From Candidatus Shapirobacteria bacterium (lineage in GTDB: Bacteria; Patescibacteriota; Microgenomatia; UBA12405), in NCBI GenBank assembly GCA_041665485.1, contig JBAYIT010000001.1:73884-137883 (forward strand): a stretch of DNA of 64,000 nucleotides, given 5' to 3'. Within the stretch, counting starts at the first letter, position 1, and every line of letters begins with the position of its first letter. Below the pieces are notes generated by a model. The model was not told where the DNA came from, searched no databases, and saw only the letters and a program-made list of their open reading frames with translations. Below are positions 10,643 through 63,696 of the stretch, piece after piece. The position numbers were made by a program, and so were the translations under genes.

Positions 10643-11430
10643 ATTAATTGATTTCTCTCAATAATTCTCCACCCTCGGCTATTTGTGTCTTTTTGAACCA
10701 ACGTCTGATGTTCGGTCACTGCCTCTTTAGTTAATCCTTCCGGCATTATTAAGACCCTTTTGGGGTTTAAGTTACAACTTTCAACTATTTCTTCGATTTC
10801 CTTCAGATCTTCAACTCGGCTGACGACAAATTTAAACCATCCAACTGGCCACCCATTAATCAGACTTAAAACCTCGGGCCTAAATCTCAATTTTTTCTCA
10901 TTACCACTGTTGGCTAATTTGGGTGAACAGTTTATTTGACATTGAATCAATTCTGGACTCGGTTTGATCGTGCCATTGGTTTCAATTTCCACTTGCCAAT
11001 CTTTCATTTGGTTTAACAACTTAACAATCAAGTCTTGTTGTAACAAGGGTTCACCGCCGGTTATGACCACCCTTTTTTGGATATTTTTATCCAGCCCAAA
11101 TTTATCCACCCAAGCTTTTTCAATTTCTATTTTTGTTTTTTCTATACTCCAATCTTCTGGTTCCTGCCAGTATTCCGCTCTTTTGGTGTCCCACGTATAT
11201 CCTGTGTCACACCTCCATCCGTTTGGAAAACCACAATGAAGGTTACAAAACTGTAATCTTAAAAACACTGCCGGGCAACCAGCGGTACCTCCTTCAGATT
11301 CCAGTAGACCTTCTCCCTGAAGGGTAGCAAACACTTTATCTCCCGACACTTTAAAAAAATCGAGCTTCCGAGCTGACTTTAACAAGTCACCCTTAGTGGG
11401 TTTATAAACAACGCTAGATTGTTTTTTCAT
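10615..11430 (-). CDS. queE: 7-carboxy-7-deazaguanine synthase (radical SAM)
   Basis: QueE-type cluster motif 'CNLHCGFPNGWRCDTGYTWD' and 'ITGGEPLL'. Confidence 0.8.
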   Translation of the reverse strand: MKKQSSVVYKPTKGDLLKSARKLDFFKVSGDKVFATLQGEGLLESEGGTAGCPAVFLRLQFCNLHCGFPNGWRCDTGYTWDTKRAEYWQEPEDWSIEKTKIEIEKAWVDKFGLDKNIQKRVVITGGEPLLQQDLIVKLLNQMKDWQVEIETNGTIKPSPELIQCQINCSPKLANSGNEKKLRFRPEVLSLINGWPVGWFKFVVSRVEDLKEIEEIVESCNLNPKRVLIMPEGLTKEAVTEHQTLVQKDTNSRGWRIIERNQLIWFGPKRRT

Positions 11431-11919: not shown

Positions 11920-14097
11920 TCAAAAAAGTCCCAACTGGTTTTCACAATTAATTTTCTTTTTAGCTGGACTAAAAATTTTATTTAGTCCCAAAGTTCGGTA
12001 AGTTCGTAAACGTTTGAAATACATAATTTTAAGCATTGGTACTTGATCATCAAAATAGTCATAAATCGTAGCGTTGGTTTTTCCCTCAAAACTTCGTTGA
12101 ACTCTACCCACATATTGGATTAGTTTTCCTTTCCACGAAAACGGAAAAGCTAAAAATAGATGTGACACTGCCGGCCAATCAAAACCTTCGCCGATTAATT
12201 TACCCGTAGCAATTAGTAGTTAAAATTGTTTTTGGTTAATTCGTTTAGCAATTCGTTCTCTCTGCTTTTTAGTCATCACTCCAGTAGCTATGGCAGCCTG
12301 AACACCTTTAGTTTATTGTCGAATGAGATCCAGTAGTGTGTGACAGTGGTCGAGACGTTCAGTTAATACTAAGCACTTAGCTCCGGTATTTAACGCATCG
12401 ATAATATCGTCAGTAATTTGATTGTTACGATCAGGGTCGGATATAACTAATCGACAGGCTTCTTGAAAATCTTCTAATTTTACATTAGCTTTAAACTGTG
12501 TTTTTCGAGTGATTAAATCGGTTTTTACGATTTGGTTGGAGTTTTCACTGTTATCAATATTTTCCGTAGTTGCTTTGACTATTTGATAGCTAACATACAA
12601 AAACATCAGTTTTTCTAATTTATCTTTACGATAAGTGGTGGCGGTTAATCCTAAAACATGTTTAGAAGGGAATTGTCTGACGACAGTACTAAAAGTATTG
12701 GCCGGGGCATGATGGCATTCGTCAATAATAATTAACCCAAAATCATTTTTAATTTCATCAACCCCTCGTCTGGATAAAGTCATGTAGGAAGCAATGGTTA
12801 CTTTTTTACCAACACTCCATTTGTTATCGCCAATAATGCCTATATCAAGTTTTGAAAGAGAAAAATAATCAGTAATTCGTTTTTGCCATTGATGGAGCAG
12901 AGTGTTAGTGTGAACAATAATTAAAGTTTTTTGACCCAGTTTTTTCATTAACGCTAGAGCGACCATAGTTTTACCAAAACCAGGTTGAGCTTCCAAAATA
13001 ACTCGGTCATGAGGTAGTAACTGATGTAAAACTTGTTTTTGATCTTTACGAAGGATCAGTTTAGACGGGAAACGTACTTGTTTTGTAGTTACTCGATTAT
13101 CAACAGCCTCGATTTTTATCTGTTCTTTTTGACAAAATTTATTTAGTTTTTCCAAAAATCCCAAAGGAACTCCTATTCCATCTGGCAATCTCTCGAGGGT
13201 TTTAATAAATCGAGGGGTGTTCCAAGTGGAATAACCAAATCGTTCTTTGGTGTAAAAGTCAGGGTTGGGAAAATTTAATTCTTTTTTGAGGTATTTATAC
13301 AGTTTGTCGGGTAAATGAGTGCTAGGAATAAATATGTTTGACCCTAAAATCAATTTAGTTTCTTGATTTTGAGTTGTGGTAACAGGTAGCTCTTCAACAT
13401 TTTCATCGGGCTGGTTAGGCAGATCGTCGATTGTTTTATTGCTGGATAGTTGAAGATATTGATTGATTTCTTGTAAAGATGTTCTTCGAATTGACTGTAG
13501 ATATTGCCATTGATCAGGAATCTCTTGACCATCTGAGTTAATAAAAACGGTTGTGTTGTTTGTGACAAATTTCCCATTAAGTGGCAAACAAATTAAATTT
13601 CCATAACCTTTACCGGTATGTTCATCTTGGCTGGGAAACATTCGATCAAATGTTTTTCGATCTTGGACTCCTGCCTGGTTTAATAGTAATTTACCCATTT
13701 GTCGGGCTAGATGAGCCGGAATTTGCCCGTTAAAGAAAAACCAGACATGACCACCATTGCCCGATTTTGACCGTTCTATGGCACAAAATAGATCATTGTT
13801 AAAAGCTTTAATGGTTACTTTTTGAGCCAAAATCAACCAATCTGGTCCGTCAAAATCGATGGCTAAAAAAGTAGTGGTGTTGTCTGGAAATAATGGATAA
13901 ACGCCAATTACCTGTTTTCCGTCTAAGTGTGATTGAATAACCGAATCTGTCAATGCTAAGGGGCTTTGATTTAGTCGAAAAACTGGAGCGTAACCAGACT
14001 TCTTCTTCGGTAAATCTTCCCAATAACGGGCAAAGACATCGTCTCGGGTGTCAAAGAGAGAACGATAAAGTTTAATATTTTCAGCCGAAATGCTCAT
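11920..14097 (-). pseudogene. primase-polymerase (AEP) / SF2 DExH helicase fusion, disrupted by two in-frame TAA codons
   Basis: N-terminal AEP motifs 'LAIDFDG', 'SKSGNGGHVWFFF' and 'ICLPLNGK'. Helicase motif I 'QPGFGKTM', motif II 'DECHH', motif VI 'QYVGRVQR' and 'LLIATGKLIGEGFDWP'. A single frame runs from 14097 to 11920 and is interrupted only by TAA at 12313-12315 and 12220-12222. Confidence 0.6.
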
Positions 14098-14278
14098 AAA
14101 TCTCTAGTATTTTACCTCTTAAAGAGCAATAATCCAACAATCTCCCTACAGATTGGCAGTTTCGTGCTTCTATATATCAAACAGTATCACTGTTTTAAGA
14201 CACTCCTTTTTTATGGTGTCTCATTTGTCTCGTTTAGCTTCAAAACTTTAATAGAATGAGACAGTGGGGAAGAGGGTG

Positions 14279-14326
14279 TTATAAGGACAGAAAGGTTCCA
14301 GACCCTAATGCTCCGCCAGATGAATA
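14279..14326 (+). repeat. copy 1 of the conserved intergenic motif of about 45 nt
   Basis: See the copy at 27010-27055. Confidence 0.55.
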
Positions 14327-14514
14327 AAAAAAATCAAGCCATAATTCGTATGAAAGAATTAGATGGCGATACTCCTGAAAGAATTAACGAACTAAAGACT
14401 CTTCTTGAAGACTCAGAAAAAGGTGAGAGGATAGATTCTATTAAGTCTTGGCTTACTATTGGAATTTCTATTGTCGCTTTGATAATTAGTGTTTTAGTTG
14501 CTGTTTTTAAGTAG
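14308..14514 (+). CDS. small membrane-anchored protein
   Basis: C-terminal TM segment 'WLTIGISIVALIISVLVAVF'. The start may be the ATG at 14320. Its 5' region is a repeated motif also found at 27010. Confidence 0.4.
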   Translation: MLRQMNKKNQAIIRMKELDGDTPERINELKTLLEDSEKGERIDSIKSWLTIGISIVALIISVLVAVFK

Positions 14515-14600
14515 TTAATTCATACGTATAAATAGCTTCCAAACCCGCCTGTTTCGAGCCTGCTGAGAGAAGTGCAATGGGGTGGTGATAAAATTGTCGC

Positions 14601-20998: not shown

Positions 20999-23476
20999 AT
21001 GAACCAGCCACAATTTAGCCAACTAACACAGGAGACATTAGTAAGGGCGATGGAAAAAGCCCGAGAGTTAAAAAACTCGAATGTTGAGGAAATTCATCTA
21101 GTATGGGCACTAAAAAATGCCGAAGGAGTGGGGCAGGAATTGTTGAAAGAAATTGATGGAGAGAAGGTTGAAGAAAAATTAAAATCTCTGCCAGTGGTTG
21201 AGAACCAAGTTGAACCACAGATGTCCCCTGCCCTACAAAAAATAATCGGAGTGGCGGTGAGAAAATCTCAAGAACTGGGTGATAATTATGTGCCACAGGA
21301 AATGCTGGTGTGGGGACTAGTGGAAAGCGGAGGCGAGAGTCTTGACAAAGAAAAAGTCAAGAATGCAATAATGGATATGAGAGGAGGCAAAAAAATGGAA
21401 AGCGAAAATGGCGAGTCAAGCTATAAAGCACTGGAAAAATATACGACTGATTTAACGGCCTTGGCCAAAAGTGGCAAAGTGGACCCGGTAGTGGGAAGAG
21501 AAGAGGAGATTAGAAGGGTAACCCAAGTTTTATCGAGGCGAACAAAAAACAACCCGGTGTTGGTGGGCGAGCCGGGGGTGGGAAAAACAGCGATTGTAGA
21601 AGGACTAGCTTACCGAATAATTAATGGCGACGTGCCGGAATCGCTAAAAAATAAAAAGATAGTGGCGCTGGAAATGTCGTCCTTGCTAGCCGGGGCCAAA
21701 TACCGGGGGGAGTTTGAAGAAAGATTGAAAAATGTAATCAATGAAGTGGTTAAAGCCGAGGGTAAAGTGATTTTGTTTATCGATGAATTGCACACTCTAG
21801 TGGGGGCAGGGGGAGCAGAGGGGGCGGTGGATGCGGCCAACATGCTAAAGCCGGGCCTGGCCCGGGGAACATTGCGAGTGATTGGAGCAACAACATTAAA
21901 TGAATATCGGAAATATATTGAAAAAGATGCGGCGTTGGAGAGAAGATTTCAACCGGTGTTAGTAGGCGAGCCGACAGTGGAGGACACGATTTCAATTTTA
22001 CGAGGGATTAAGGAAAAATACGAAGTTCATCATGGAATAAAAATTACCGATAGTGCCCTGGTGGCGGCAGCTAAATTGTCGGAGAGATACATTCGGGATA
22101 GATTTTTACCAGATAAAGCAATTGATTTGGTAGATGAGGCGGCCTCGGGATTAAGGATTCAAATGGAGAGTAGCCCGACAGAAATTGATGGCCTAGAAAG
22201 GCTGGCCAGACAGCTGGAAATTGAGGAAAAGGCGATAAGCAAGGAAAAGAGTGACGAATCAAAAAAAAGATTAGAGGAAATTAGAAAAGAACTAGGAGAA
22301 AAACGAGAAGAGCTAAATAAATTAATGACAAGATGGAAAGAGCAAAAAGAAAAATTAACACTAGTGAAGGAAAGCCGGGAAAAACTTGATCAACTAAGGG
22401 GAAAATTAGAAGAGGCGGAGAGAAATTTAGAGCTTGATAAGGCAGCGGAAATTAAATATGGGGAAATTCCGGCGGTAGAAAAAAAATTAAAGGAGGCGGA
22501 GGAAGGGTGGAAACAGATCAAAGAAAGTGAGCGGTTAATTAAACAGGAGGTGGGGGAGGAAGAAATAGCCAAAGTGGTGGGAAGATGGACAGGAATTCCA
22601 GCATCGAGAATGATGGAGACAGAAAATCAAAAACTTAGAAACCTAGAAACAGAGATGGAAAAACGGGTGGTGGGGCAAGAAGAGGCAGTTAAGGCGGTGG
22701 CCAACGCAGTGCGAAGGTCGAGATTACATCTTGGGGAAAGCAATAAGCCGGCGACTTTTTTGTTTTTAGGGCCAACCGGAGTGGGAAAGACGGAAACTGC
22801 CAAAGCGCTGGCAGAAGAGTTGTTTAACGACGAAAAAGCCTTAATTAGGGTGGATATGAGTGAATATGGCGAGCAACACAGCCTAGCAAGAATGATCGGG
22901 TCGCCCCCGGGGTATGTTGGTTATGATGAGGGCGGGCAATTAACCGAGGCAGTAAGGCGAAAACCATATAGTGTAATACTGCTTGATGAAATTGAAAAAG
23001 CGCATCCGCTGGTTTTTAATATATTTTTACAGGTATTTGATGACGGACGATTAACCGATGGTAAGGGAAAAACGGTCGATTTTTCCAACTGTGTCATTAT
23101 AATGACCTCAAACTTAGCCGAAGACGAGGTGGATAAGGTGTTGCGACCGGAATTTATTAACCGGATTGACAGAATAATTGTCTTTAACAGTTTGAGTGAA
23201 AAAGATTTGGTGAAAATTGTGGAGATTCAAATAAAAAGACTAATGGAAAGACTAAAGGAGCAGGGAGTGGTGCTAACAATAACTGATGAAGTAAAAAAAT
23301 ATTTAGCAAAAAATGGATTTGACAAGGTGTTTGGAGCCAGACCATTAAAACGATTGATTGAAATGGAAATTACCGATAAAGTGGCAATGCTATTGTTGGA
23401 CAAGGAAGAGAGTGAAATTAGTGGCATGGTGGCGGAGATTAAAAACGGGAAAATTGTGGTGGAGTTGGGGGATTGA
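20999..23476 (+). CDS. clpB: ATP-dependent chaperone ClpB
   Basis: Two AAA+ modules ('[15 protein letters not shown]' and '[15 protein letters not shown]'), a coiled-coil middle domain and a Clp N-domain. Confidence 0.9.
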
Positions 23477-23478
23477 TT

Positions 23479-23513
23479 CAGTTAACAGTTACGAGTTATC
23501 GGTTACGAGTTGA
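23479..23513. repeat. heptamer tandem array (CAGTTAA CAGTTAC GAGTTAT CGGTTAC GAGTTGA)
   Basis: Five degenerate 7-mers directly after the clpB stop. A near-identical array lies at 63362-63389. Confidence 0.6.
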
Positions 23514-23544
23514 TCTAGTTTGCGATAAAATAGCGAGTAGTTTA

Positions 23545-23632
23545 GTCTCCGTAGTTCAATGGACCCGCCTACGTTGAAACTTCGGCGGGCAAGTAGAATA
23601 GACTACAGAGGCAGAAGCTAACTTGGACAAGT
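23545..23632 (+). other. partial duplicate of the 5' 28 nt of tRNA-Arg(CCG), interrupted by a 30-nt GC hairpin
   Basis: GTCTCCGTAGTTCAATGGA-[CCCGCCTACGTTGAAACTTCGGCGGGCAAG]-TAGAATAG matches the tRNA 5' end at 23633 (GTCCCCGTAGTTCAATTGGATAGAATAG), then diverges. Confidence 0.55.
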
Positions 23633-23706
23633 TGTCCCCGTAGTTCAATTGGATAGAATAGTGGCCTCCGAAGCCATTGATTCGGGTTCAACTCCCGACG
23701 GGGATA
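23633..23706 (+). tRNA. tRNA-Arg(CCG): tRNA-Arg (anticodon CCG)
   Basis: Acceptor GTCCCCG/CGGGGAT, anticodon stem GTGGC/GCCAT with loop CTCCGAA, T-arm TCGGG-TTCAACT-CCCGA. Confidence 0.8.
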
Positions 23707-23709
23707 CTG

Positions 23710-24912
23710 ATGAAAAAATTATTGTTGATGTGGTTTCCGGGGGCAGAAAGAGAACAGGTGAGGTGGTATTATCTGACCTCAATTTTGTTGGATGTTTGGT
23801 TTGTAGAGGCAATTTGGTATTTTTATTGGGGAAAATTTGGCAGTTATCAGAGTGTGGGCTTGGTTTTTTCGGTATTGACGGCAATTTGGGTGATATTAGA
23901 AATTCCAACTGGATTATTTGCTGACAGATTTGGAAGGAGAAAGTCGACAGTTCTGGGGGCGGGTATTATGGCAGTCGGAGCGGTGGTGGTGGCTGGTGCT
24001 CAGAATATGGCTTGGTTGGCGGTTGGTGGCCTAATGGAAAACGTGGGTAGAGCCTTTATCTCTGGGGCGATTGACGCCTTGGTCTACGAAGATATAAAGG
24101 CGGGGGGCGGAGATTATGACAAACTCTATGGCAAAGTTGCAGCAGCAAAGGTAAGGGGACAAATAGCAATATATAGCTTATCGGTAGTGACTGGTGGATT
24201 TTTGTTTTCGGTTTATTTTAGATTGGCTCATATCTTGCAGGCAATTGTAATTGCGGCAGCCTTCTTGGCCAGCCGGCAACTGAAAGAAGTGGAAACCAAA
24301 TTAAGCTCGGGAGAGAGGATAGATTATGTAGCTGGGTTTAAACAATTGGCAACTAAAAAAATGAGGGGGTATCTCTTACCATTATTGGGGACAGCGATTT
24401 TGGTGTATTTCTACGATTGGGGGTTATCAAAACCGAATATTGCCCTGAAGTTTGGGTATGGTTACGAGGCCCAGGGTGTAATTTTTGGAATGATGGCAGT
24501 AATTAATGTGATCTTGCTAGGGCAGTTTGGTCGATGGCGAGAAAAGGTTGGTGATTATTGGAACACATACATGACAAATTTTCTTGTTGCCGGTTGTCTG
24601 GTGATGGTGGGGGTAGTAACTGGATATATCGGAATAATTCTGGTTTTATTAATGGAGTTGGCGACTGCTTGGGGAGCAACTATCCAAACAACTGTTATTA
24701 ATAGGCACATTGATTCTAAATATCGGGCAACAACTCTTTCGACATTAGAGTTTGTAACAAAAATTCCTTTTATCTTAACAACGACGATGGTGGGGAGGCT
24801 TATCGATACGGGGAAAATTGACTATTTTCATTTAGCAATTGGTGGAATGGGGTTGGCGGTGGGGTTAATATCACTTATTATTTACAAATCAAATGAGCCG
24901 AACAAAATTTGA
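23710..24912 (+). CDS. MFS-type transporter (paralog 1 of 4)
   Basis: 'LFADRFGRRK' MFS loop motif and about 12 TM segments. Start moved to the ATG after the tRNA. C-terminal 'SKYRATTLSTL' is shared with the paralogs. Confidence 0.6.
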   Translation: MKKLLLMWFPGAEREQVRWYYLTSILLDVWFVEAIWYFYWGKFGSYQSVGLVFSVLTAIWVILEIPTGLFADRFGRRKSTVLGAGIMAVGAVVVAGAQNMAWLAVGGLMENVGRAFISGAIDALVYEDIKAGGGDYDKLYGKVAAAKVRGQIAIYSLSVVTGGFLFSVYFRLAHILQAIVIAAAFLASRQLKEVETKLSSGERIDYVAGFKQLATKKMRGYLLPLLGTAILVYFYDWGLSKPNIALKFGYGYEAQGVIFGMMAVINVILLGQFGRWREKVGDYWNTYMTNFLVAGCLVMVGVVTGYIGIILVLLMELATAWGATIQTTVINRHIDSKYRATTLSTLEFVTKIPFILTTTMVGRLIDTGKIDYFHLAIGGMGLAVGLISLIIYKSNEPNKI

Positions 24913-46901: not shown

Positions 46902-47463
46902 ACAGGAGAAGATTGAGAGGGTGATTGGGAATAGGAGAGAGGGGGTGGTGGTGCTGGAAGATATTCATGACCCACATAATGCGGCGGCGGTATGGAGAAG
47001 TTGTGATGCTTTTGGCTGGCAAAAAGTCTATTTGATTTTTGATAAAGAAATCCCTTTTAATCCAAAAAAGGTTGGTAAAGCCAGTTCGTCATCGGCCAAT
47101 AAATGGCTAACTTTTAAGATTTTTAAGTCGACAAAAGAATGTTTTGAAGAACTAAAAAAGGATGGCTTTGAAATTTACGCCACAGTACTTGATGAGGGAT
47201 CGAAGGGCTTGTGGGAAACAAAATTTAGAAACAAGAAAACAGCCATAGCTTTGGGAAACGAGCATAGAGGATTGTCGGAAACGGCAGTGAAATTGGCTGA
47301 CCGAAAAATTTATATTCCAATGAGAGGAATGGTGCAGAGTTTGAATTTGTCGGTGACGGCGGGGATAGTGTTGGCAGAGGCCGAAAGACAGAGAAATTCA
47401 GATCCTAGATCTTGGATGTTAGATCTTAGGGAAAAAGAAGAGTTGTTGAAGAGGTGGAGATAG
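46882..47463 (+). CDS. SpoU/TrmH-family RNA 2'-O-methyltransferase
   Basis: 'LEDIHDPHNAAAVWRSCDAFG', 'ALGNEHRGLS' and 'IPMRGMVQSLNLSV' SPOUT motifs. The C-terminus overlaps a heptamer array. Confidence 0.7.
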   Translation: MKEMENRQEKIERVIGNRREGVVVLEDIHDPHNAAAVWRSCDAFGWQKVYLIFDKEIPFNPKKVGKASSSSANKWLTFKIFKSTKECFEELKKDGFEIYATVLDEGSKGLWETKFRNKKTAIALGNEHRGLSETAVKLADRKIYIPMRGMVQSLNLSVTAGIVLAEAERQRNSDPRSWMLDLREKEELLKRWR

Positions 47464-50255: not shown

Positions 50256-51074
50256 ATGAAACAAATGGTGGTGAGAACAAAGATGGGTTTGGAGGAGATC
50301 GGGAAGACGAAGAATGATTTTGAGTATTGGTCGGCGAGGGAGTTGATGACAGTGCTGGGGTATATTGAATGGAGGAAATTTTGGGGTGTAGTGAAAAAAG
50401 CGAAGGTGGCTTGTAAAAATAGCGGATATGAGCCGAAAAACCATTTTGTCGGAGCCGCCAAAATGGTAGCAATTGGATCTGATACCATGAGGCGGTTAAG
50501 TGACTATTGGTTAACCCGTTATGCCTGTTATTTAATAGCCCAGAATGGGGATAGCCGGAAACCAGAGATTGCTTTTGCCCAAACTTATTTTGCGGTACAA
50601 ACAAGAAAACAGGAAATCAGGGAGGCGGATGAGAAACTGGTAAAAAGAATTGAAGCTAGAGAGAGGTTAAAAGAAACAGAAAGAAAAATTGAGGGAACGG
50701 TATATAAAAGAGGAATTCGAAGTTCGGCTGATTTTGCTAGCTTTAAAGATAAACATATTCGAGGTCTGTATGGAGGGATAGGGATTGCTAGTTTAAAAAA
50801 GAAAAGAAAGATTCCTAAAAATCGGGCCCTGGCAGACTTCGACAGCTTTTTGGAGTTAAGGGCGAAAGATTTTGCCCTAGCGATGACTGATCACAATATT
50901 AAAGACAAAAATTTGACTGGGAAGCCAAAACTAGAAAAAGAGGTTTATGAGAACAGCGTGGCAACTAGAAGAACAATGCTAAAACGTGGAATAATGCCGG
51001 AAAACTTAAAGCCGGAAAAAGATATCAAGGAGATTAAAAGCAGACTAGAGATTAAAGGCGAACTTGAAGGCTAG
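50256..51074 (+). CDS. DNA-damage-inducible protein D (DinD) homolog
   Basis: Collinear with E. coli DinD: 'YWSARELM..LGY', 'KMVAIGSDTMRRLSDYWLTRYACYLIAQNGDSRKPEIAFAQTYFAVQTR'. Confidence 0.6.
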   Translation: MKQMVVRTKMGLEEIGKTKNDFEYWSARELMTVLGYIEWRKFWGVVKKAKVACKNSGYEPKNHFVGAAKMVAIGSDTMRRLSDYWLTRYACYLIAQNGDSRKPEIAFAQTYFAVQTRKQEIREADEKLVKRIEARERLKETERKIEGTVYKRGIRSSADFASFKDKHIRGLYGGIGIASLKKKRKIPKNRALADFDSFLELRAKDFALAMTDHNIKDKNLTGKPKLEKEVYENSVATRRTMLKRGIMPENLKPEKDIKEIKSRLEIKGELEG

Positions 51075-51584
51075 GGTTAGCAAAAGAACAAGACTGACGG
51101 GGAAAACGACTTTGGCATAGGGAAAAGGAGCGTAGCCTAGCTTCTTTTTAGTGTTGAGATAGGTGATGTTGCCAATAAGCATGCCTAGGAAACCCAGGAC
51201 TTGGCCGAAAATAATTTTGTCAATGCCAAGCAGTTTATTAGCGGAGTGGCCAGTTTGGCCGGTGGTAATAAAATAAGCAAGGGTGGTTAGAAGTAAGATT
51301 AGAGAAAGAAATATGGGTTTGGAAAAAATTTCCAATTTCCAATTTCCAATTTCTAATTTATTCAGTTTGGGAGCCAGCCAGAAGGCGAGGGCGGTGTTGA
51401 GGGCGGAGATCCAGATACTAACTAGAAGATCGTCAATGCCGAGTTTTTTGGCAATTAACATTCCCCCACCGACAGTAACGATACATACGGGGCACTGCGC
51501 CCCTACGGGGGGCGCAAGAAATAAGAAATAAGAAATAAGAAATAAGAATGAAAACAAAAATATCATAGAGTTATTGTAATACAT
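51045..51584 (-). CDS. hypothetical membrane protein (start uncertain)
   Basis: Several TM segments. The N-terminal 50 codons run through simple repeats and GC hairpins, so the real start may be an internal Met. Confidence 0.35.
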   Translation of the reverse strand: MYYNNSMIFLFSFLFLISYFLFLAPPVGAQCPVCIVTVGGGMLIAKKLGIDDLLVSIWISALNTALAFWLAPKLNKLEIGNWKLEIFSKPIFLSLILLLTTLAYFITTGQTGHSANKLLGIDKIIFGQVLGFLGMLIGNITYLNTKKKLGYAPFPYAKVVFPVSLVLLLTLAFKFAFNL

Positions 51585-56636: not shown

Positions 56637-57367
56637 ATGAAGAAAATGGAGAAAGTGAAAAAGATTTTGGAGAAGACGGGAAAATATTGGATTGGATTTG
56701 TGGGAGATTCGATAACCAGTTGCGAATGGGTGCATCCAAACTGGCGAGAGATTGTGGAGTATGTGCTGAAAGAAGAATTACAACCGAAGTTTGCTGATTG
56801 GCGGGTTCCCTCCTGGGGAATTAGATGTTTTAATTATGGGTTTGACGGAGCAACAACTGGAGATATATTAAAACTAATTTCCAATTACCAATTACCAATT
56901 TCCAACCTCAACCTAGTGATTAGTTTAATGGGAGGAAATGACAGATTGTTTGGAATAAAACCGGAAGAATCAAAAAAAATATTGAGAAAATAATTAAAAA
57001 ACTTGATGAGAGTGGTGTTGAAGTGGTGTGGTGTACTTCAATTCCGGCTTATTATCGGGCAGACAAAAACAAAGAATACGAGCCTTATGCTAAGGCAACT
57101 ATGGCAATTGAAAAATCAATGGGTGTTCAGATAATTAATATGTTTGAAAAATACAAACAATTTGACCTAGATCGTTTTTTTACGTTTAAATCGGAGGAAA
57201 ACCCAGAAGAGAGAGTAAAGGAGGGAGATTTAGATTTTTGGCATCCGAATCAGCTGGGAAATGCTTATATTGCCAAAATAATTTTGGGAGAAGTGTTTGG
57301 GGTGGAATTTGACCCGGAAAAATATATTAAAGAAAATTTGGCAGGAGAAAAATATCCGGGGTATTAA
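56637..57367 (+). pseudogene. SGNH/GDSL hydrolase split by a frameshift at an A8 homopolymer (56976-56983)
   Basis: Block I 'GFVGDSIT' and block III 'GGND' are in the first ORF. Block V 'DFWHPN' is in the second. Adding one A in the A8 run fuses the frames (PEESKKNIEKIIKKLDESGVEVVWCTS). Confidence 0.6.
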
Positions 57368-58312: not shown

Positions 58313-58870
58313 ATGAAACAAACACAACAGAATCTTCTTAAGGCCTTTGCCGGTGAGTCACAGGCAAGGAATAAATATACAACTTTTGCCAAGATTGCCA
58401 GAAAGGAGAATTTGGAATGGGTGGCGAGGATTTTTGAGGAGACAGCTGATAACGAAAGAGTTCATGCGGAGGAATTGTTTGAAATGATCAATGAGCCGGT
58501 AGTAGTGCCGGGAGACTTGGCGATTGCCCCGTTTAGCAAAACAAGCGATAACCTAAAAATGGCGGCGGAGGGGGAAAAATATGAATGGACGCAAATGTAT
58601 CCTGACTTTGAGGCAATTGCCAAGGAAGAAGGCGAGACCGAGCCAACAAGACTGTTTGGAGAATTAAAAGAAGTTGAGGAGAAACACGAGGAAAGATATA
58701 TTATAATTGCTCGGAAACTTGATAGTAATACCCTTTACAATTCGGAGGCGGAGTTGGAATGGAAATGTTTAAATTGTGGCTATATTCACAAGGGGACAAC
58801 TCCCCCACCGACTTGTCCAGTCTGTAAAAAACCGTTGACATGGTATGCGGGGTTGGGATTGATAAGGTAA
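58313..58870 (+). CDS. rubrerythrin with C-terminal rubredoxin-like domain
   Basis: Ferritin-like 'LLKAFAGESQARNKY' with 'ERVHAEE' diiron ligands, and a C-terminal 'CLNCGY...CPVC'. Confidence 0.85.
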   Translation: MKQTQQNLLKAFAGESQARNKYTTFAKIARKENLEWVARIFEETADNERVHAEELFEMINEPVVVPGDLAIAPFSKTSDNLKMAAEGEKYEWTQMYPDFEAIAKEEGETEPTRLFGELKEVEEKHEERYIIIARKLDSNTLYNSEAELEWKCLNCGYIHKGTTPPPTCPVCKKPLTWYAGLGLIR

Positions 58871-58873
58871 TCG

Positions 58874-58908
58874 TAGATCCTAGATGCTAGATCTTAGATC
58901 CTAGATAC
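58874..58908. repeat. heptamer tandem array (TAGATCC TAGATGC TAGATCT TAGATCC TAGATAC)
   Basis: Five 7-mers between the convergent rubrerythrin and HAD genes. Related arrays lie at 47401-47430 and 55134-55168. Confidence 0.6.
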
Positions 58909-62685: not shown

Positions 62686-63696
62686 ATGCAGGATAATGTT
62701 TACGATACGATCATTGTCGGATCAGGACCGGCGGGATTAACGGCGGCGATATATAATGTCCGATCGGCACTGAAAACAATTGTGGTTGCCGGAAACCAGC
62801 CAGGGGGACAATTGACACTAACAACAACGGTGGATAATTTTCCAGGATTTCCAGAAGGGGTTGGCGGGGTTAAGTTGATGATGGATACCCAGCAACAGGT
62901 GAGGAATTTAGGAGTGACTATTCGTAACAACTCTGTTACGAAAATAACCAATAACCAAAAAACAATTTCCAAACAAGTTCCAATAACCAATTTTCCAAGT
63001 TCCAAACTATTTGAAGTTGAATTGGATAATGGGGAAAAATTGCAGGCAAGGGCGGTGATTGTGGCAACGGGAGCGAGGGCAAAGTGGCTCCAGATTCCAA
63101 AAGAAAGAGAGTTAGTTGGGAAAGGAGTATCGGGATGCGCTACTTGTGATGGGATGTTTTTTAGGGACAAAACGGTAGTGGTGGTGGGCGGTGGAGAAAC
63201 AGCGGTAGAGGACGCGGAGTTTTTAGCTAGAATGGCAAAAAAAGTTTATATAATTCACCGAAGAGATGAATTAAGAACCAGCGCCTCGGCACAAAAAAGA
63301 GTGTTTGCAAATCCAAAAATTGAAATGGTGTGGAATAGTGAAGTGGTGGAAATCAATTGTCAGTTATCAGTTACGAGTTACGAGTTAGAAAAGTTACAAA
63401 ATATAAAAATAAAGAACAACAAAACTGGGGAAGAAAAGATAATGGAAATTGAGGGATTGTTTGTGGCGATTGGGAGGCAACCGGAGACGGAGTTTGTTAA
63501 GGATTTAGTGGAATTAAGAGATGAGGGTTATGTAGTGACTGGGAAAAATCCAGAATATCCGATGATGACAACACTGGAAGGAGTTTTTGCCGCCGGTGAC
63601 TGCATGGATTCTATATACAGACAGGCGATTGTGGCGGCAGGAGCGGGGGCAAGGGCGGCACTGGATGCGGAGAGATGGCTGAAGAATGGAAGTTAG
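62686..63696 (+). CDS. trxB: thioredoxin reductase
   Basis: 'IVGSGPAGLTAAIY', redox-active 'CATCDG', 'VVGGGETAVEDA' and 'GVFAAGDCMD'. Contains two embedded heptamer arrays. Confidence 0.85.
   Translation: MQDNVYDTIIVGSGPAGLTAAIYNVRSALKTIVVAGNQPGGQLTLTTTVDNFPGFPEGVGGVKLMMDTQQQVRNLGVTIRNNSVTKITNNQKTISKQVPITNFPSSKLFEVELDNGEKLQARAVIVATGARAKWLQIPKERELVGKGVSGCATCDGMFFRDKTVVVVGGGETAVEDAEFLARMAKKVYIIHRRDELRTSASAQKRVFANPKIEMVWNSEVVEINCQLSVTSYELEKLQNIKIKNNKTGEEKIMEIEGLFVAIGRQPETEFVKDLVELRDEGYVVTGKNPEYPMMTTLEGVFAAGDCMDSIYRQAIVAAGAGARAALDAERWLKNGS

What the first reader, a model, noticed from the sequence alone, without database searches (positions are those of the whole stretch)
23479..23513. CAGTTAC/GAGTTAC heptamer arrays: one after the clpB stop and a near-identical copy inside trxB
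The array 23479-23513 (CAGTTAA CAGTTAC GAGTTAT CGGTTAC GAGTTGA) is intergenic. The array 63362-63389 (CAGTTAT CAGTTAC GAGTTAC GAGTTAG) lies inside trxB. There it encodes 'QLSVTSYEL' in a surface loop that differs from canonical thioredoxin reductases. The same element is therefore tolerated inside an essential enzyme gene.
Basis: seen in the sequence. Interest (0 to 1): 0.55.

Follow-up and report, generated by a model that had tools for sequence, protein, structure and literature searches.

The report
Seven-base repeat arrays, one inside trxB
Two short runs of a seven-base repeat (unit N-AGTTA-C), one just after the clpB stop codon and one translated inside the thioredoxin reductase gene of a Candidatus Shapirobacteria genome, are real members of a poorly understood, widespread class of bacterial heptamer repeats (the TAACTGA class), and they are not two copies of one jumping element.

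Summary
Array 1 (23479-23513) has five units and starts 2 nt after the clpB stop. TCAGTTA is the reverse complement of TAACTGA, the heptamer direct repeat described by MacGregor (2015). A species-wide scan found the same CAGTTAC/GAGTTAC mixture in more than 118 loci from many phyla.

In this orientation the repeat has no stop codon in any frame, which is why it can sit inside genes. Period 7 is the only tandem-repeat class in excess in the window and in relatives.

The trxB array is not specific to this genome. Relatives with 60-85% TrxB identity carry a four-unit array at the same site. Unit position 3 is A in distant relatives and G in the window clade, in all four units, and two of those four changes are synonymous.

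The clpB array recurs with five units in three lineages and is far better conserved than neutral sites.

I conclude that there is DNA-level constraint or homogenisation on a 5-6 nt core, most likely recognition by an unknown factor. This is a new member of a known kind and of moderate interest.

The parts
23479..23513 (+). Intergenic heptamer array of five units (CAGTTAA CAGTTAC GAGTTAT CGGTTAC GAGTTGA). It starts 2 nt after the clpB stop and is in 'reverse' orientation (reverse complement GTAACTN / TAACTGA class).
   Evidence: Searches show the sequence, TRF result and shuffles. Orthologous five-unit arrays sit directly after the clpB stop in L012 (identical), L010 and L212, and are absent in L011 and L013. 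Identity between lineages is 28-31/35, against 0.52 at clpB four-fold sites.
20999..23476 (+). clpB-like AAA+ chaperone gene whose stop codon (TGA, 23474-23476) anchors array 1.
   Evidence: Pfam hits: AAA_2, AAA_lid_9, ClpB_D2-small, Clp_N. Homologs are named ClpB by their sources.
63361..63388 (+). In-frame heptamer array of four units (CAGTTAT CAGTTAC GAGTTAC GAGTTAG) inside trxB. It is translated as Q226-L234, QLSVTSYEL. A degenerate fifth unit (CAATTGT) lies upstream at 63354-63360.
   Evidence: It coincides with the 8-residue insertion relative to solved TrxRs and with a loop in the AF2 model. Seven relatives carry a four-unit array at the same site.
62686..63696 (+). trxB (thioredoxin-disulfide reductase), host gene of array 2 and of a second heptamer-rich insertion.
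62943..63008 (+). Second heptamer-rich in-frame insertion in trxB ('site 1', residues about 86-108, ITNNQKTISKQVPITNFPSS; unit AATAACC/CCAATAA). It is absent from solved TrxRs.
   Evidence: TRF period 7 at 62943-62966. Gap in the PDB alignments. pLDDT below 50 at residues 93-105. The related element of L009 (site 1) occurs at site 2 in L197 with 93% nucleotide identity.
56874..56905 (+). Same-family array (TAATTTC CAATTAC CAATTAC CAATTTC), in frame in a GDSL-like ORF (56637-56993). It encodes ISNYQLPISN, almost the same peptide as the TrxB inserts of relatives.
51327..51359 (+). Same-family array (CAATTTC x4.7) inside ORF 51045-51584 on the minus strand, where it reads KLEIGNWKLEI.
23634..23707 (+). 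tRNA-Arg (CCG) downstream of array 1. This is context only: its distance from the array differs in every lineage.

Best explanation
WHAT IT IS
Both arrays are members of a heptanucleotide direct-repeat class with a conserved core and a free spacer base (N-A-[G/A]-T-T-A-C). The reverse complement is GTAAYTN, which includes TAACTGA. Both arrays lie in the orientation that has no stop codon in any frame.

SHOWN
(a) Seven-base tandem arrays are the only tandem-repeat class in excess in this genome and its relatives.
(b) The same CAGTTAC/GAGTTAC mixture occurs in many bacterial phyla. Most often it lies, in the opposite (GTAACTS) orientation, 0-10 nt upstream of start codons. About a quarter of arrays lie sense-strand inside ORFs, and some lie directly after stop codons.
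(c) The trxB array fills a hairpin turn that is a hot spot for short in-frame insertions in Shapirobacteria and related TrxBs. It keeps four units at the same site in lineages with 60-85% TrxB identity.
(d) Its units change in parallel, including at synonymous sites.
(e) The clpB array is anchored to the clpB stop codon, keeps five units in three lineages, and is much better conserved than neutral sites. AGTT is almost invariant, while unit positions 1 and 7 are free.

INFERRED
The arrays arise by local 7-nt duplication (slipped or template-switch replication). They survive inside trxB because this orientation is frame-neutral and the loop tolerates extra residues. They are then held to a lineage-specific core by a DNA- or RNA-level force. 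I think the most likely force is recognition of successive cores by an unidentified single-strand nucleic-acid-binding factor. Templated conversion within and between arrays probably contributes.

They are not two insertions of one mobile element, and they are not phase-variation switches.
For: CLASS MEMBERSHIP
- TCAGTTA is the reverse complement of TAACTGA. The published properties match (PMC4679880). 'Forward' repeats carry stops in all frames. 'Reverse' repeats translate as LSVISYQ (here QLSVTSY). A reverse set directly after a stop codon is reported in F. litoralis. Reverse sets occur inside ORFs.
About 9 are expected from 37 bits against 1.2e12 positions (my arithmetic). Arrays are 3-16 units long and mix CAGTTAC, GAGTTAC, GGGTTAC, TAGTTAC and GAATTAC.
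- Context in those loci: 27/118 lie inside ORFs, all in the sense direction. 54/118 are followed, in GTAACTS orientation, by the start of an ORF of at least 80 aa within 60 nt, and 29 of these within 10 nt. About 16 lie 0-11 nt after a stop codon.

PERIOD-7 EXCESS
- Window: 5 arrays at period 7 and none at periods 4-15, with shuffles near 0.
- Relatives: 15 period-7 arrays in 93 kb, against 4 at all other periods.

trxB ARRAY
- Window: CAGTTAT CAGTTAC GAGTTAC GAGTTAG. L007 (60% identity): CAATTAT CAATTAC GAATTAC GAATTAG. They differ only at unit position 3 of all four units. For 4 changes placed at random in 28 sites the chance is 7/20475, about 3e-4 (my arithmetic). Two of the four changes are synonymous (CAA>CAG, GAA>GAG).
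- 3 of 5 invariant-residue columns in the array keep the same codon in all 7 genes: TTA, ACG (14% of Thr codons) and TAC (31% of Tyr codons). In the rest of the gene the figure is 16 of 139 (Fisher p = 0.017).
- The unit-boundary variant TC/CG is shared across the A-type and G-type clades. This homoplasy is what templated copying between units would produce.
- L009 carries a different heptamer (CAATCTT type) of the same length at the same site.

SAME UNIT TYPE AT UNLINKED LOCI
- L001 and L006 (AATTACG in trxB) have (CGTAATT)n just upstream of fpg and of a 5'-3' exonuclease gene. L004, in the window clade, has CGTAACT units upstream of fpg.

clpB ARRAY
- Searches show its presence and position in each lineage.
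- Identity is 30/35, 31/35 and 28/35, against 0.52 at 250-265 four-fold sites (binomial p = 3e-5, 5e-6 and 6e-4).
- Over the 15 units, positions 2-5 are 14-15/15 invariant. Position 1 is C8/G6/T1 and position 7 is A5/C5/T4/G1.

NOT AN ASSEMBLY ARTEFACT
- The same arrays appear in independent assemblies (L012, L003-L005, L010, L212).
Against: - No binding factor is identified, and no expression data were available. The 'recognition' step is pure inference.
- The two window arrays are in the orientation and positions that are least typical of the class. Neither lies upstream of a start codon, so any function proposed for forward arrays need not apply to them.
- Between the window and L010, the whole clpB-tRNA spacer beyond the array is strikingly conserved (long identical stretches in the alignment; no percentage was computed). 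Part of the array's conservation in that pair could therefore be regional. The L212 comparison is free of this problem, because its downstream flank is unrelated.
- The codon test rests on only 5 columns.
- A rough neighbour-joining tree scatters the heptamer-type inserts among TrxBs that have the plain G-E turn or other inserts. Recurrent gain at a hot spot from each genome's own repeat pool cannot be excluded, and it would explain the match in unit type without concerted change.
- The window itself also carries A/T-type arrays (CAATTAC, CAATTTC), so the 'lineage-specific core' is not absolute.
- Pairing of trxB and clpB loci into the same relatives' genomes is assumed only from shared sample of origin (L003 with L010, L009 with L011).
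Confidence: 0.55

Rival explanations
1. Neutral by-products. Each array arose in place by replication slippage of a 7-nt seed. Heptamers are the unit length most prone to slippage. The arrays have no function, and they look alike only because few heptamers are both slippage-prone and stop-free.
For: Heptamers are reported as the most abundant long simple-repeat class in many bacteria, and a polymerase-slippage explanation has been proposed (Mrazek 2007, as summarised in PMC4679880 and PMC4692102). The window holds period-7 arrays with unrelated units as well: AAGAAAT, ATCCTAG and AGATCTT. Nothing in the flanks points to a function: no Rfam match, no promoter or terminator pattern above shuffle expectation, and a fold z-score of -1.9.
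Against: No copy-number change was seen in either array across lineages whose neutral sites are near saturation. The clpB array is conserved at 80-89% against 52%. The pattern of a conserved core and a free spacer base, and the recurrence of the same core in many phyla, are not expected from unconstrained slippage.
Confidence: 0.22
2. One reading: a very small mobile or copy-pasted element that inserted both after clpB and into trxB.
For: The clpB site is empty in L011 and L013. The TrxB loops clearly take up foreign short segments. A 57-61 nt heptamer-rich element lies at site 1 in L009 and at site 2 in L197 with 93% identity. GC-rich hairpin inserts occur at both sites in other lineages. P0026 has inserts nested inside the heptamer peptide. 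The array region was replaced wholesale in L009.
Against: The trxB array occupies the same site, with the same length and unit-boundary pattern, in lineages down to 60% identity. The two window arrays share only repeat units and no flanks. Unrelated bacteria match each array equally well. No terminal inverted repeats were found, and the only candidate target duplication is a 5-nt TTGAT, which could be chance. No transposase-like partner is known. Only 5 hits were found in 2.9 million viral contigs.
Confidence: 0.13
3. Protein-level selection. The TrxB loop peptide (QL-x-[VI]T[SN]YEL) is functional, for example as a partner contact, and is conserved for that reason. The intergenic array is an unrelated coincidence.
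For: The peptide is conserved in several lineages. The A>G switch gives conservative replacements (I>V, N>S).
Against: Many close TrxBs have a plain G-E turn or quite different inserts at this site. L009 replaced the peptide with NQSSNFDLQS. Synonymous positions are conserved beyond the gene average and two of the four parallel changes are synonymous. The same peptide appears in an unrelated GDSL-like ORF at 56874-56905. The model confidence in the loop is lowered.
Confidence: 0.07
4. Contingency (phase-variation) loci. Changes in unit number switch expression of clpB/tRNA-Arg or of trxB on and off.
For: Seven-base units shift the reading frame. Heptamer repeats drive phase variation in some pathogens (PMC8262952, listed).
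Against: Unit number is fixed: 5 units in the window, L012, L010 and L212, and 4 units in seven trxB lineages. Any change of one unit would destroy TrxB. Array 1 lies after a stop codon.
Confidence: 0.03

Closest known systems
TAACTGA heptamer direct repeats of marine Beggiatoaceae, some Cyanobacteria and Bacteroidetes (MacGregor 2015, PMC4679880)
   Same: The unit is the same: TCAGTTA is the reverse complement of TAACTGA. In that register, two of the four trxB units and one of the five clpB units are exact, and the others are mostly one-base variants. Arrays are short (2-6 units). The forward orientation is full of stop codons. The reverse orientation is open and translates as LSVISYQ-like peptide, and reverse sets occur inside ORFs and directly after stop codons. 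In relatives (L001, L006) and in my multi-phylum set, arrays sit a few nt upstream of start codons, as in that paper.
   Different: The dominant unit here is GTAACT[C/G] or GTAATT[C/G] with a free seventh base, rather than strict TAACTGA. The host is a CPR (Patescibacteria) genome, a group not in the published list. The published distribution was 'very limited', whereas the scan found many phyla. An array fixed in frame inside a core enzyme and tracked across lineages is not described there.
Cyanobacterial STRR (short tandemly repeated repetitive) heptamers and the GGGAATC / GGGGAYT repeats of Xanthomonas and Nostoc (PMC4692102; Mazel 1990, from my own knowledge)
   Same: They are tandem 7-nt units in short arrays, dispersed and mostly intergenic. 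Function is unknown, and period 7 is specifically over-represented.
   Different: The unit sequences differ: they are G-rich, and quadruplex-forming in Xanthomonas and Nostoc. There, length varies extensively between close strains. Here copy number is fixed.
Rickettsia palindromic elements and other miniature repeats inserted in frame in protein genes (Ogata 2000, from my own knowledge; MITE review PMC10969869, listed but not read)
   Same: A genomic repeat is translated as an extra surface segment of an otherwise conserved enzyme. The same repeat family is also found between genes.
   Different: Those elements are 100-150 bp palindromic units with defined ends. These are 28-35 bp tandem heptamers with no ends, no palindrome and no evidence of transposition.
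Simple-sequence contingency loci (phase variation)
   Same: Tandem short units whose number is not a multiple of three per unit.
   Different: No copy-number variation was observed, and the arrays are not in a promoter or 5' coding position of a surface gene.
Arrays of binding sites for oligomeric single-strand RNA/DNA-binding proteins, such as cold-shock domains that cover 6-7 nt or TRAP-type repeated triplets (my own knowledge; Csp, S1 and CsrA were proposed for TAACTGA in PMC4679880)
   Same: A conserved core plus a free spacer base is repeated at a fixed short period that does not fit the DNA helical repeat.
   Different: No protein is known. Both orientations relative to transcription occur, which a purely RNA-binding factor would not explain.

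Membership tests
TAACTGA-class heptamer direct repeats (PMC4679880) | Head-to-tail copies of a 7-nt unit, two or more per set | tested here: met
   5 and 4 units
TAACTGA-class heptamer direct repeats (PMC4679880) | Unit is TAACTGA (reverse complement TCAGTTA) or a close variant | tested here: met
   In the TCAGTTA register, trxB reads TCAGTTA TCAGTTA CGAGTTA CGAGTTA. The clpB array reads TCAGTTA ACAGTTA CGAGTTA TCGGTTA CGAGTTG. That gives three exact units, five one-base variants and one two-base variant.
TAACTGA-class heptamer direct repeats (PMC4679880) | One orientation has stops in all frames. The other is open and gives an LSVISYQ-like peptide, and ORF-internal sets are always in the open orientation. 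| tested here: met
   The trxB array reads QLSVTSYEL. All 27 ORF-internal arrays in the multi-phylum set are in the sense orientation.
TAACTGA-class heptamer direct repeats (PMC4679880) | Sets mostly intergenic, in forward orientation, a few nt upstream of a start codon | tested here: not met
   Neither window array is so placed: one lies after a stop and one inside a gene. The feature is met by family members in relatives (L001, L006, L004) and by 54/118 loci of the scan. The paper itself lists reverse, ORF-internal and after-stop sets as minority cases.
TAACTGA-class heptamer direct repeats (PMC4679880) | No intrinsic secondary structure of the repeat | tested here: met
   The fold of 23470-23640 has a z-score of -1.9, and 9 of 200 shuffles fold as well. 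The array pairs only weakly.
Phase-variable simple-sequence contingency locus | Unit number differs between strains or close relatives | tested here: not met
   5 units in the window, L012, L010 and L212. 4 units in seven trxB lineages.
Phase-variable simple-sequence contingency locus | Position in a promoter or 5' coding region, so that unit changes switch a gene | tested here: not met
   One array lies after a stop codon and the other in the middle of a core enzyme gene.
Miniature mobile element (MITE / RPE / small dispersed repeat) | Dispersed copies that share defined ends or flanks | tested here: not met
   BLAST of each array with its flanks against the window and all loci finds only repeat-unit matches.
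Miniature mobile element (MITE / RPE / small dispersed repeat) | Terminal inverted repeats or target-site duplication | tested here: inconclusive
   No inverted termini were found. A 5-nt TTGAT flanks array 1, but that is within chance.
Miniature mobile element (MITE / RPE / small dispersed repeat) | Presence/absence polymorphism at orthologous sites | tested here: met
   The clpB site is empty in L011 and L013. The TrxB turn is G-E in many relatives.
Cis-acting array of protein-binding sites | Conserved core with free spacer, conserved above the neutral rate | tested here: met
   Positions 2-5 are 14-15/15 invariant, while positions 1 and 7 are free. Identity is 28-31/35 against 0.52 at four-fold sites.
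Cis-acting array of protein-binding sites | An identified binding protein and an effect on a neighbouring gene | not testable with these tools
   No expression or binding data are available.
Cyanobacterial STRR | Units CCCCAGT, TTGGTCA or CAACAGT in heterocystous cyanobacteria | tested here: not met
   The unit differs, and the host is Candidatus Shapirobacteria.

The most novel reading that the evidence does not exclude
The N-A-[G/A]-TTAC heptamer arrays are recognition arrays for an unidentified nucleic-acid-binding factor that is shared across many bacterial phyla. Its preferred core shifted from AATTAC to AGTTAC in the window's clade. Arrays at unlinked loci (upstream of fpg, after clpB, and even the translated array inside trxB) then followed the shift. 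If so, an essential enzyme's loop sequence is dictated by a DNA/RNA-level code rather than by the protein.
Probability: 0.2. Interest if true: 0.75.

Novelty: new member of a known kind. Interest (0 to 1): 0.45.

Why it matters
Heptamer direct repeats have been known since 1990 (STRR), and the TAACTGA class since 2015. Their function is still unknown, and they were thought to be confined to a few lineages.

This case extends them to a small CPR genome, and the scan suggests they occur in many phyla. It also offers a rare natural experiment: an array fixed inside a conserved enzyme gene. There, the protein reading frame gives an internal yardstick that separates DNA-level from protein-level constraint. 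The parallel synonymous changes and the array after clpB, which is better conserved than neutral sites, are signals of the kind that could guide a search for the factor or mechanism behind these repeats.

The case also shows that two loops of Shapirobacteria TrxB act as landing pads for several kinds of short repeats. This matters for annotation and for using insertions as phylogenetic markers.

Tried and rejected
- Restriction avoidance of AATT as the cause of the parallel AATT>AGTT changes. AATT observed/expected is 0.97-0.99 in the window, its clade and the A-type clade. Rejected.
- Known RNA family. Rfam at E <= 1 over 22500-24500 gives only the tRNA and a chance hit.
- Promoter or terminator role of array 1. 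Consensus scans give nothing above shuffle expectation near the array. The distance from the array to the tRNA promoter-like TAAAAT box differs in the window, L010 (+31 nt) and L212 (+~580 nt). Rejected.
- Secondary structure. The fold is not better than shuffles.
- Replication-strand polarity. 28 of about 30 family arrays in Shapirobacteria loci read NARTTWC on the G-rich strand. Across phyla, orientation is unrelated to local GC skew (60 against 58). The local bias is explained by gene-relative rules, so I do not claim polarity.
- TATAAT after the arrays in L001. It is better read as a degenerate repeat unit than as a -10 box, because in other phyla the arrays abut the start codon.
- Phage carriage. 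Only 5 stretches were found in IMG/VR. Uninformative.
- Assembly artefact. Rejected, because the same arrays are found in independent assemblies.
- A single ancient gain of the trxB array. This could not be established. The neighbour-joining tree is poorly resolved and the insert types are patchy.

Full report
**1. The observation**

The window comes from a Candidatus Shapirobacteria (Patescibacteria/CPR) metagenome-assembled genome. The exact TrxB and ClpB proteins are on record from a 411,674-bp contig.

- Array 1 is at 23479-23513 and reads CAGTTAA CAGTTAC GAGTTAT CGGTTAC GAGTTGA. It starts 2 nt after the TGA stop of a clpB-like ORF (20999-23476) and lies 120 nt upstream of tRNA-Arg(CCG) at 23634-23707.
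It reads CAGTTAT CAGTTAC GAGTTAC GAGTTAG and lies inside trxB (62686-63696). It encodes Q226-L234, QLSVTSYEL.
- A degenerate three-unit pattern matches only these two places in the window and none of 100 shuffles.

**2. The TrxB loop**

Alignments to solved thioredoxin reductases show an 8-residue gap exactly here. A second gap of about 20 residues lies at positions 86-106.

An AlphaFold2 model (mean pLDDT 83.6) places residues 224-238 in a loop between strands 218-223 and 239-244, with lowered confidence. Residues 93-105 are a very low-confidence loop.

The redox CATC motif and the nucleotide-binding motifs are intact.

The second insertion (62943-63008) is itself heptamer-rich, with unit AATAACC.

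**3. Period 7 is special in this genome**

With one scoring scheme for periods 4-15, the window has five arrays at period 7 and none at any other period. Shuffles give about zero. In 93 kb from relatives there are 15 period-7 arrays against four at all other periods.

Several window arrays lie in ORFs:
- CAATTAC/CAATTTC at 56874-56905 in a GDSL-like ORF, which reads ISNYQLPISN;
- CAATTTC at 51327-51359 and AAGAAAT at 51516-51548 in ORF 51045-51584 (minus strand);
- AGATCTT at 47400-47429 in a SpoU methylase gene.

**4. The repeat is a known kind**

TCAGTTA is the reverse complement of TAACTGA. MacGregor (2015, PMC4679880) described TAACTGA direct repeats in marine Beggiatoaceae, some Cyanobacteria and five Bacteroidetes.
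- They are mostly intergenic, in 'forward' orientation, a few nt upstream of start codons.
- Forward copies have stop codons in every frame.
- 'Reverse' copies are open, translate as LSVISYQ, and occur inside some ORFs and directly after a stop codon.
- Their function is unknown. Translational regulation through an RNA-binding protein was proposed.

Heptamers are reported as the most abundant long simple-repeat class in bacteria, with a polymerase-slippage idea to explain it. I found no paper in the held library that links such repeats to Patescibacteria.

**5. Distribution**

I scanned one genome per species with CAGTTACGAGTTAYSRGTTA. The loci come from Poribacteria, Bacteroidota, Ignavibacteria, Chloroflexota, Planctomycetota, Cyanobacteria, Verrucomicrobia, several Patescibacteria and others.

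The arrays are 3-16 units long. They keep AGTTAC and vary the first base.

When oriented as NAGTTAC:
- 27/118 are inside ORFs, always in the sense direction;
- 54/118 are followed on the other strand by a start codon within 60 nt, and 29 of these within 10 nt, without a Shine-Dalgarno sequence;
- about 16 begin 0-11 nt after a stop codon, like array 1.

Unrelated genomes match each window array as well as the two arrays match each other.

**6. History of the trxB array**

At this hairpin turn, 120 TrxB homologs show four states:
- the canonical G-[E/D] turn;
- heptamer-type inserts (QLRVTSYEL, QLRITNYEL, YELPITNYEL, YQLSITNYES, DQLSITN);
- GC-rich hairpin inserts ('PSLDKGG' type);
- other short inserts.

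The DNA of eight relatives shows four units at the same site and of the same length:

| Locus | TrxB identity to window | Array |
|---|---|---|
| L004, L003 | 82-85% | CAGTTAC GAGTTAC GAGTTAC GAGTTGG |
| L001 | 68% | CAATTAC GAATTAC GAATTAC GAATTAG |
| L006, L133 | 64-67% | GAATTAC CAATTAC GAATTAC GAATTAG |
| L007 | 60% | CAATTAT CAATTAC GAATTAC GAATTAG |
| L009 | 85% | CAATCTT CAAACTT CGATCTT CAATCTG |

The window and L007 differ only at unit position 3, in all four units. Two of those changes are synonymous.

Codons for invariant residues are identical in all seven genes in 3 of 5 array columns, against 16 of 139 elsewhere (p = 0.017). The codons kept are rare ones, ACG and TAC.

The TC/CG unit-boundary variant is shared across both clades. 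This homoplasy is what copying between neighbouring units would produce.

A rough tree scatters the insert types. A single gain with later losses and replacements cannot be separated from recurrent gain at a hot spot.

**7. Unit type at other loci**

L001 and L006 have AATTACG in trxB. They carry (CGTAATT)3 just upstream of fpg and of a 5'-3' exonuclease gene. L004, from the window clade, has CGTAACT units upstream of fpg. The window has lost that fpg array.

AATT is not depleted in any group, so restriction avoidance does not explain the switch.

**8. History of the clpB array**

- It is identical in L012, which is the same species.
- L010 (ClpB 90%) has TAGTTAT CAGTTAC GAGTTGT CAATTAC GAGTTGA. 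This sits after a duplicated remnant of the clpB 3' end, because a DUF6909 gene has inserted there.
- L212 (ClpB 85%) has CAGTTAA CAGTTAA GAGTTAT CAGTTAC GAGTTAG two nt after the stop. About 580 nt of unrelated DNA follow before the tRNA.
- L011 (86%) and L013 (71%) have no array.

The array therefore travels with the clpB stop codon, not with the tRNA, and it always has five units.

Identity between lineages is 28-31 of 35. ClpB four-fold sites are only 0.52 identical (p = 6e-4 to 5e-6). AGTT is almost invariant, while unit positions 1 and 7 vary.

One caution applies. Between the window and L010 the rest of the spacer is also very conserved.

**9. Interpretation**

What is shown:
- The arrays are members of the TAACTGA/GTAACTN class, in the stop-free orientation.
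- The trxB copy is translated in a loop that tolerates and exchanges short inserts.
- Copy numbers are fixed.
- Both arrays show sequence conservation or parallel change that protein coding cannot explain.

What is inferred:
- The arrays originate by 7-nt duplication.
- They are then held to a core, most likely through recognition by an unidentified factor, possibly helped by templated conversion.

The alternatives are ranked in the report sections. They are neutral slippage, a miniature mobile element, protein-level selection and phase variation.

It is partly wrong, in that they are not two insertions of one element and the trxB copy is not genome-specific.

**10. Limits**

- Only 64 kb of the genome was available.
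- Pairing of trxB and clpB loci from relatives into single genomes is unproven.
- The codon test is small.
- No expression, population or binding data were available.

Noticed in passing
window 62943-63008; L009 774-839; L197 313-373: A heptamer-rich element of about 60 nt (NNQIPITKQDPxTNV) forms the first TrxB insertion (after VTKI) in the window clade. In L197 it sits at the second site (after EIN) with 93% nucleotide identity. Short inserts therefore appear to move between the two TrxB loops.
   Followed up: partly
L139, L140, L159, L164, L169, L184 (trxB hairpin site); P0005, P0011, P0020, P0034 and P0053 (site 1): GC-rich hairpin mini-inserts lie in frame at both TrxB loops of other Microgenomates. 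Examples are CCCCCTTTGACAAGGGGG and ACCCTCCCTTGACAAGGAGGGT, encoding PSLDKGG- or SPFDKGD-like peptides. This resembles the palindromic elements translated in Rickettsia genes.
   Followed up: partly
window 23545-23633: A 5' fragment of an older tRNA-Arg (GTCTCCGTAGTTCAATGGA, like the intact tRNA of L011) is followed by a 30-nt GC hairpin (23564-23593). Both lie upstream of the intact tRNA-Arg and of an MFS transporter gene that L011 lacks. The fragment is shared with L010 but not with L011 or L212. This looks like a rearranged tRNA integration site.
   Followed up: partly
L010 6433-8296: A DUF6909 gene is inserted on the opposite strand right after clpB. The last ~47 nt of clpB are duplicated on its far side, and that remnant keeps the heptamer array.
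   Followed up: partly
window 51516-51548 and 51327-51359: Two perfect or near-perfect heptamer arrays (AAGAAAT x4.7, AATTTCC x4.7) lie inside one small membrane-protein-like ORF (51045-51584, minus strand, no Pfam match). The first encodes the N-terminal hydrophobic segment FLFSFLFLISYFLF, a position typical of phase-variable surface genes.
   Followed up: no
window 56637-57367: A GDSL-like hydrolase appears split into two ORFs (56637-56993 and 57023-57367). The first carries the CAATTAC array, which encodes ISNYQLPISN.
   Followed up: no
window 58870-58906 and 47400-47429; L009 trxB: A second heptamer family (ATC[C/T]TAG / AGATCTT) occurs twice in the window. One copy lies between the convergent rubrerythrin-like (name from the L001/L008 ortholog's Pfam annotation) and HAD genes, where the minus-strand ORF ends inside the array. 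The other lies in the C-terminal tail of a SpoU methylase. Its unit resembles the heptamer that replaced the trxB array in L009.
   Followed up: no
window 1-64000, switch near 12000-14600; 11086-11113: GC skew is unusually strong (+0.25 to +0.39 over most of the window, whatever the gene strand) and changes sign near 12-14 kb. A tandem TTATCCAC-containing 14-mer (DnaA-box-like) lies at 11086-11113. No dnaA gene was seen, so calling this an origin is a guess.
   Followed up: no
window 12313-14097 (minus strand): This ORF has an AEP-TOTE primase-like domain (E = 5.5e-64) fused to a ResIII/DEAD helicase, a conflict-system type of protein. It sits at the GC-skew switch.
   Followed up: no
P0026 (TrxB homolog): The heptamer-encoded peptide is interrupted by two further short inserts (YELP-TRLPDGQV-TNY-PPRRAG-EL). 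These are nested mini-insertions inside a heptamer array.
   Followed up: no
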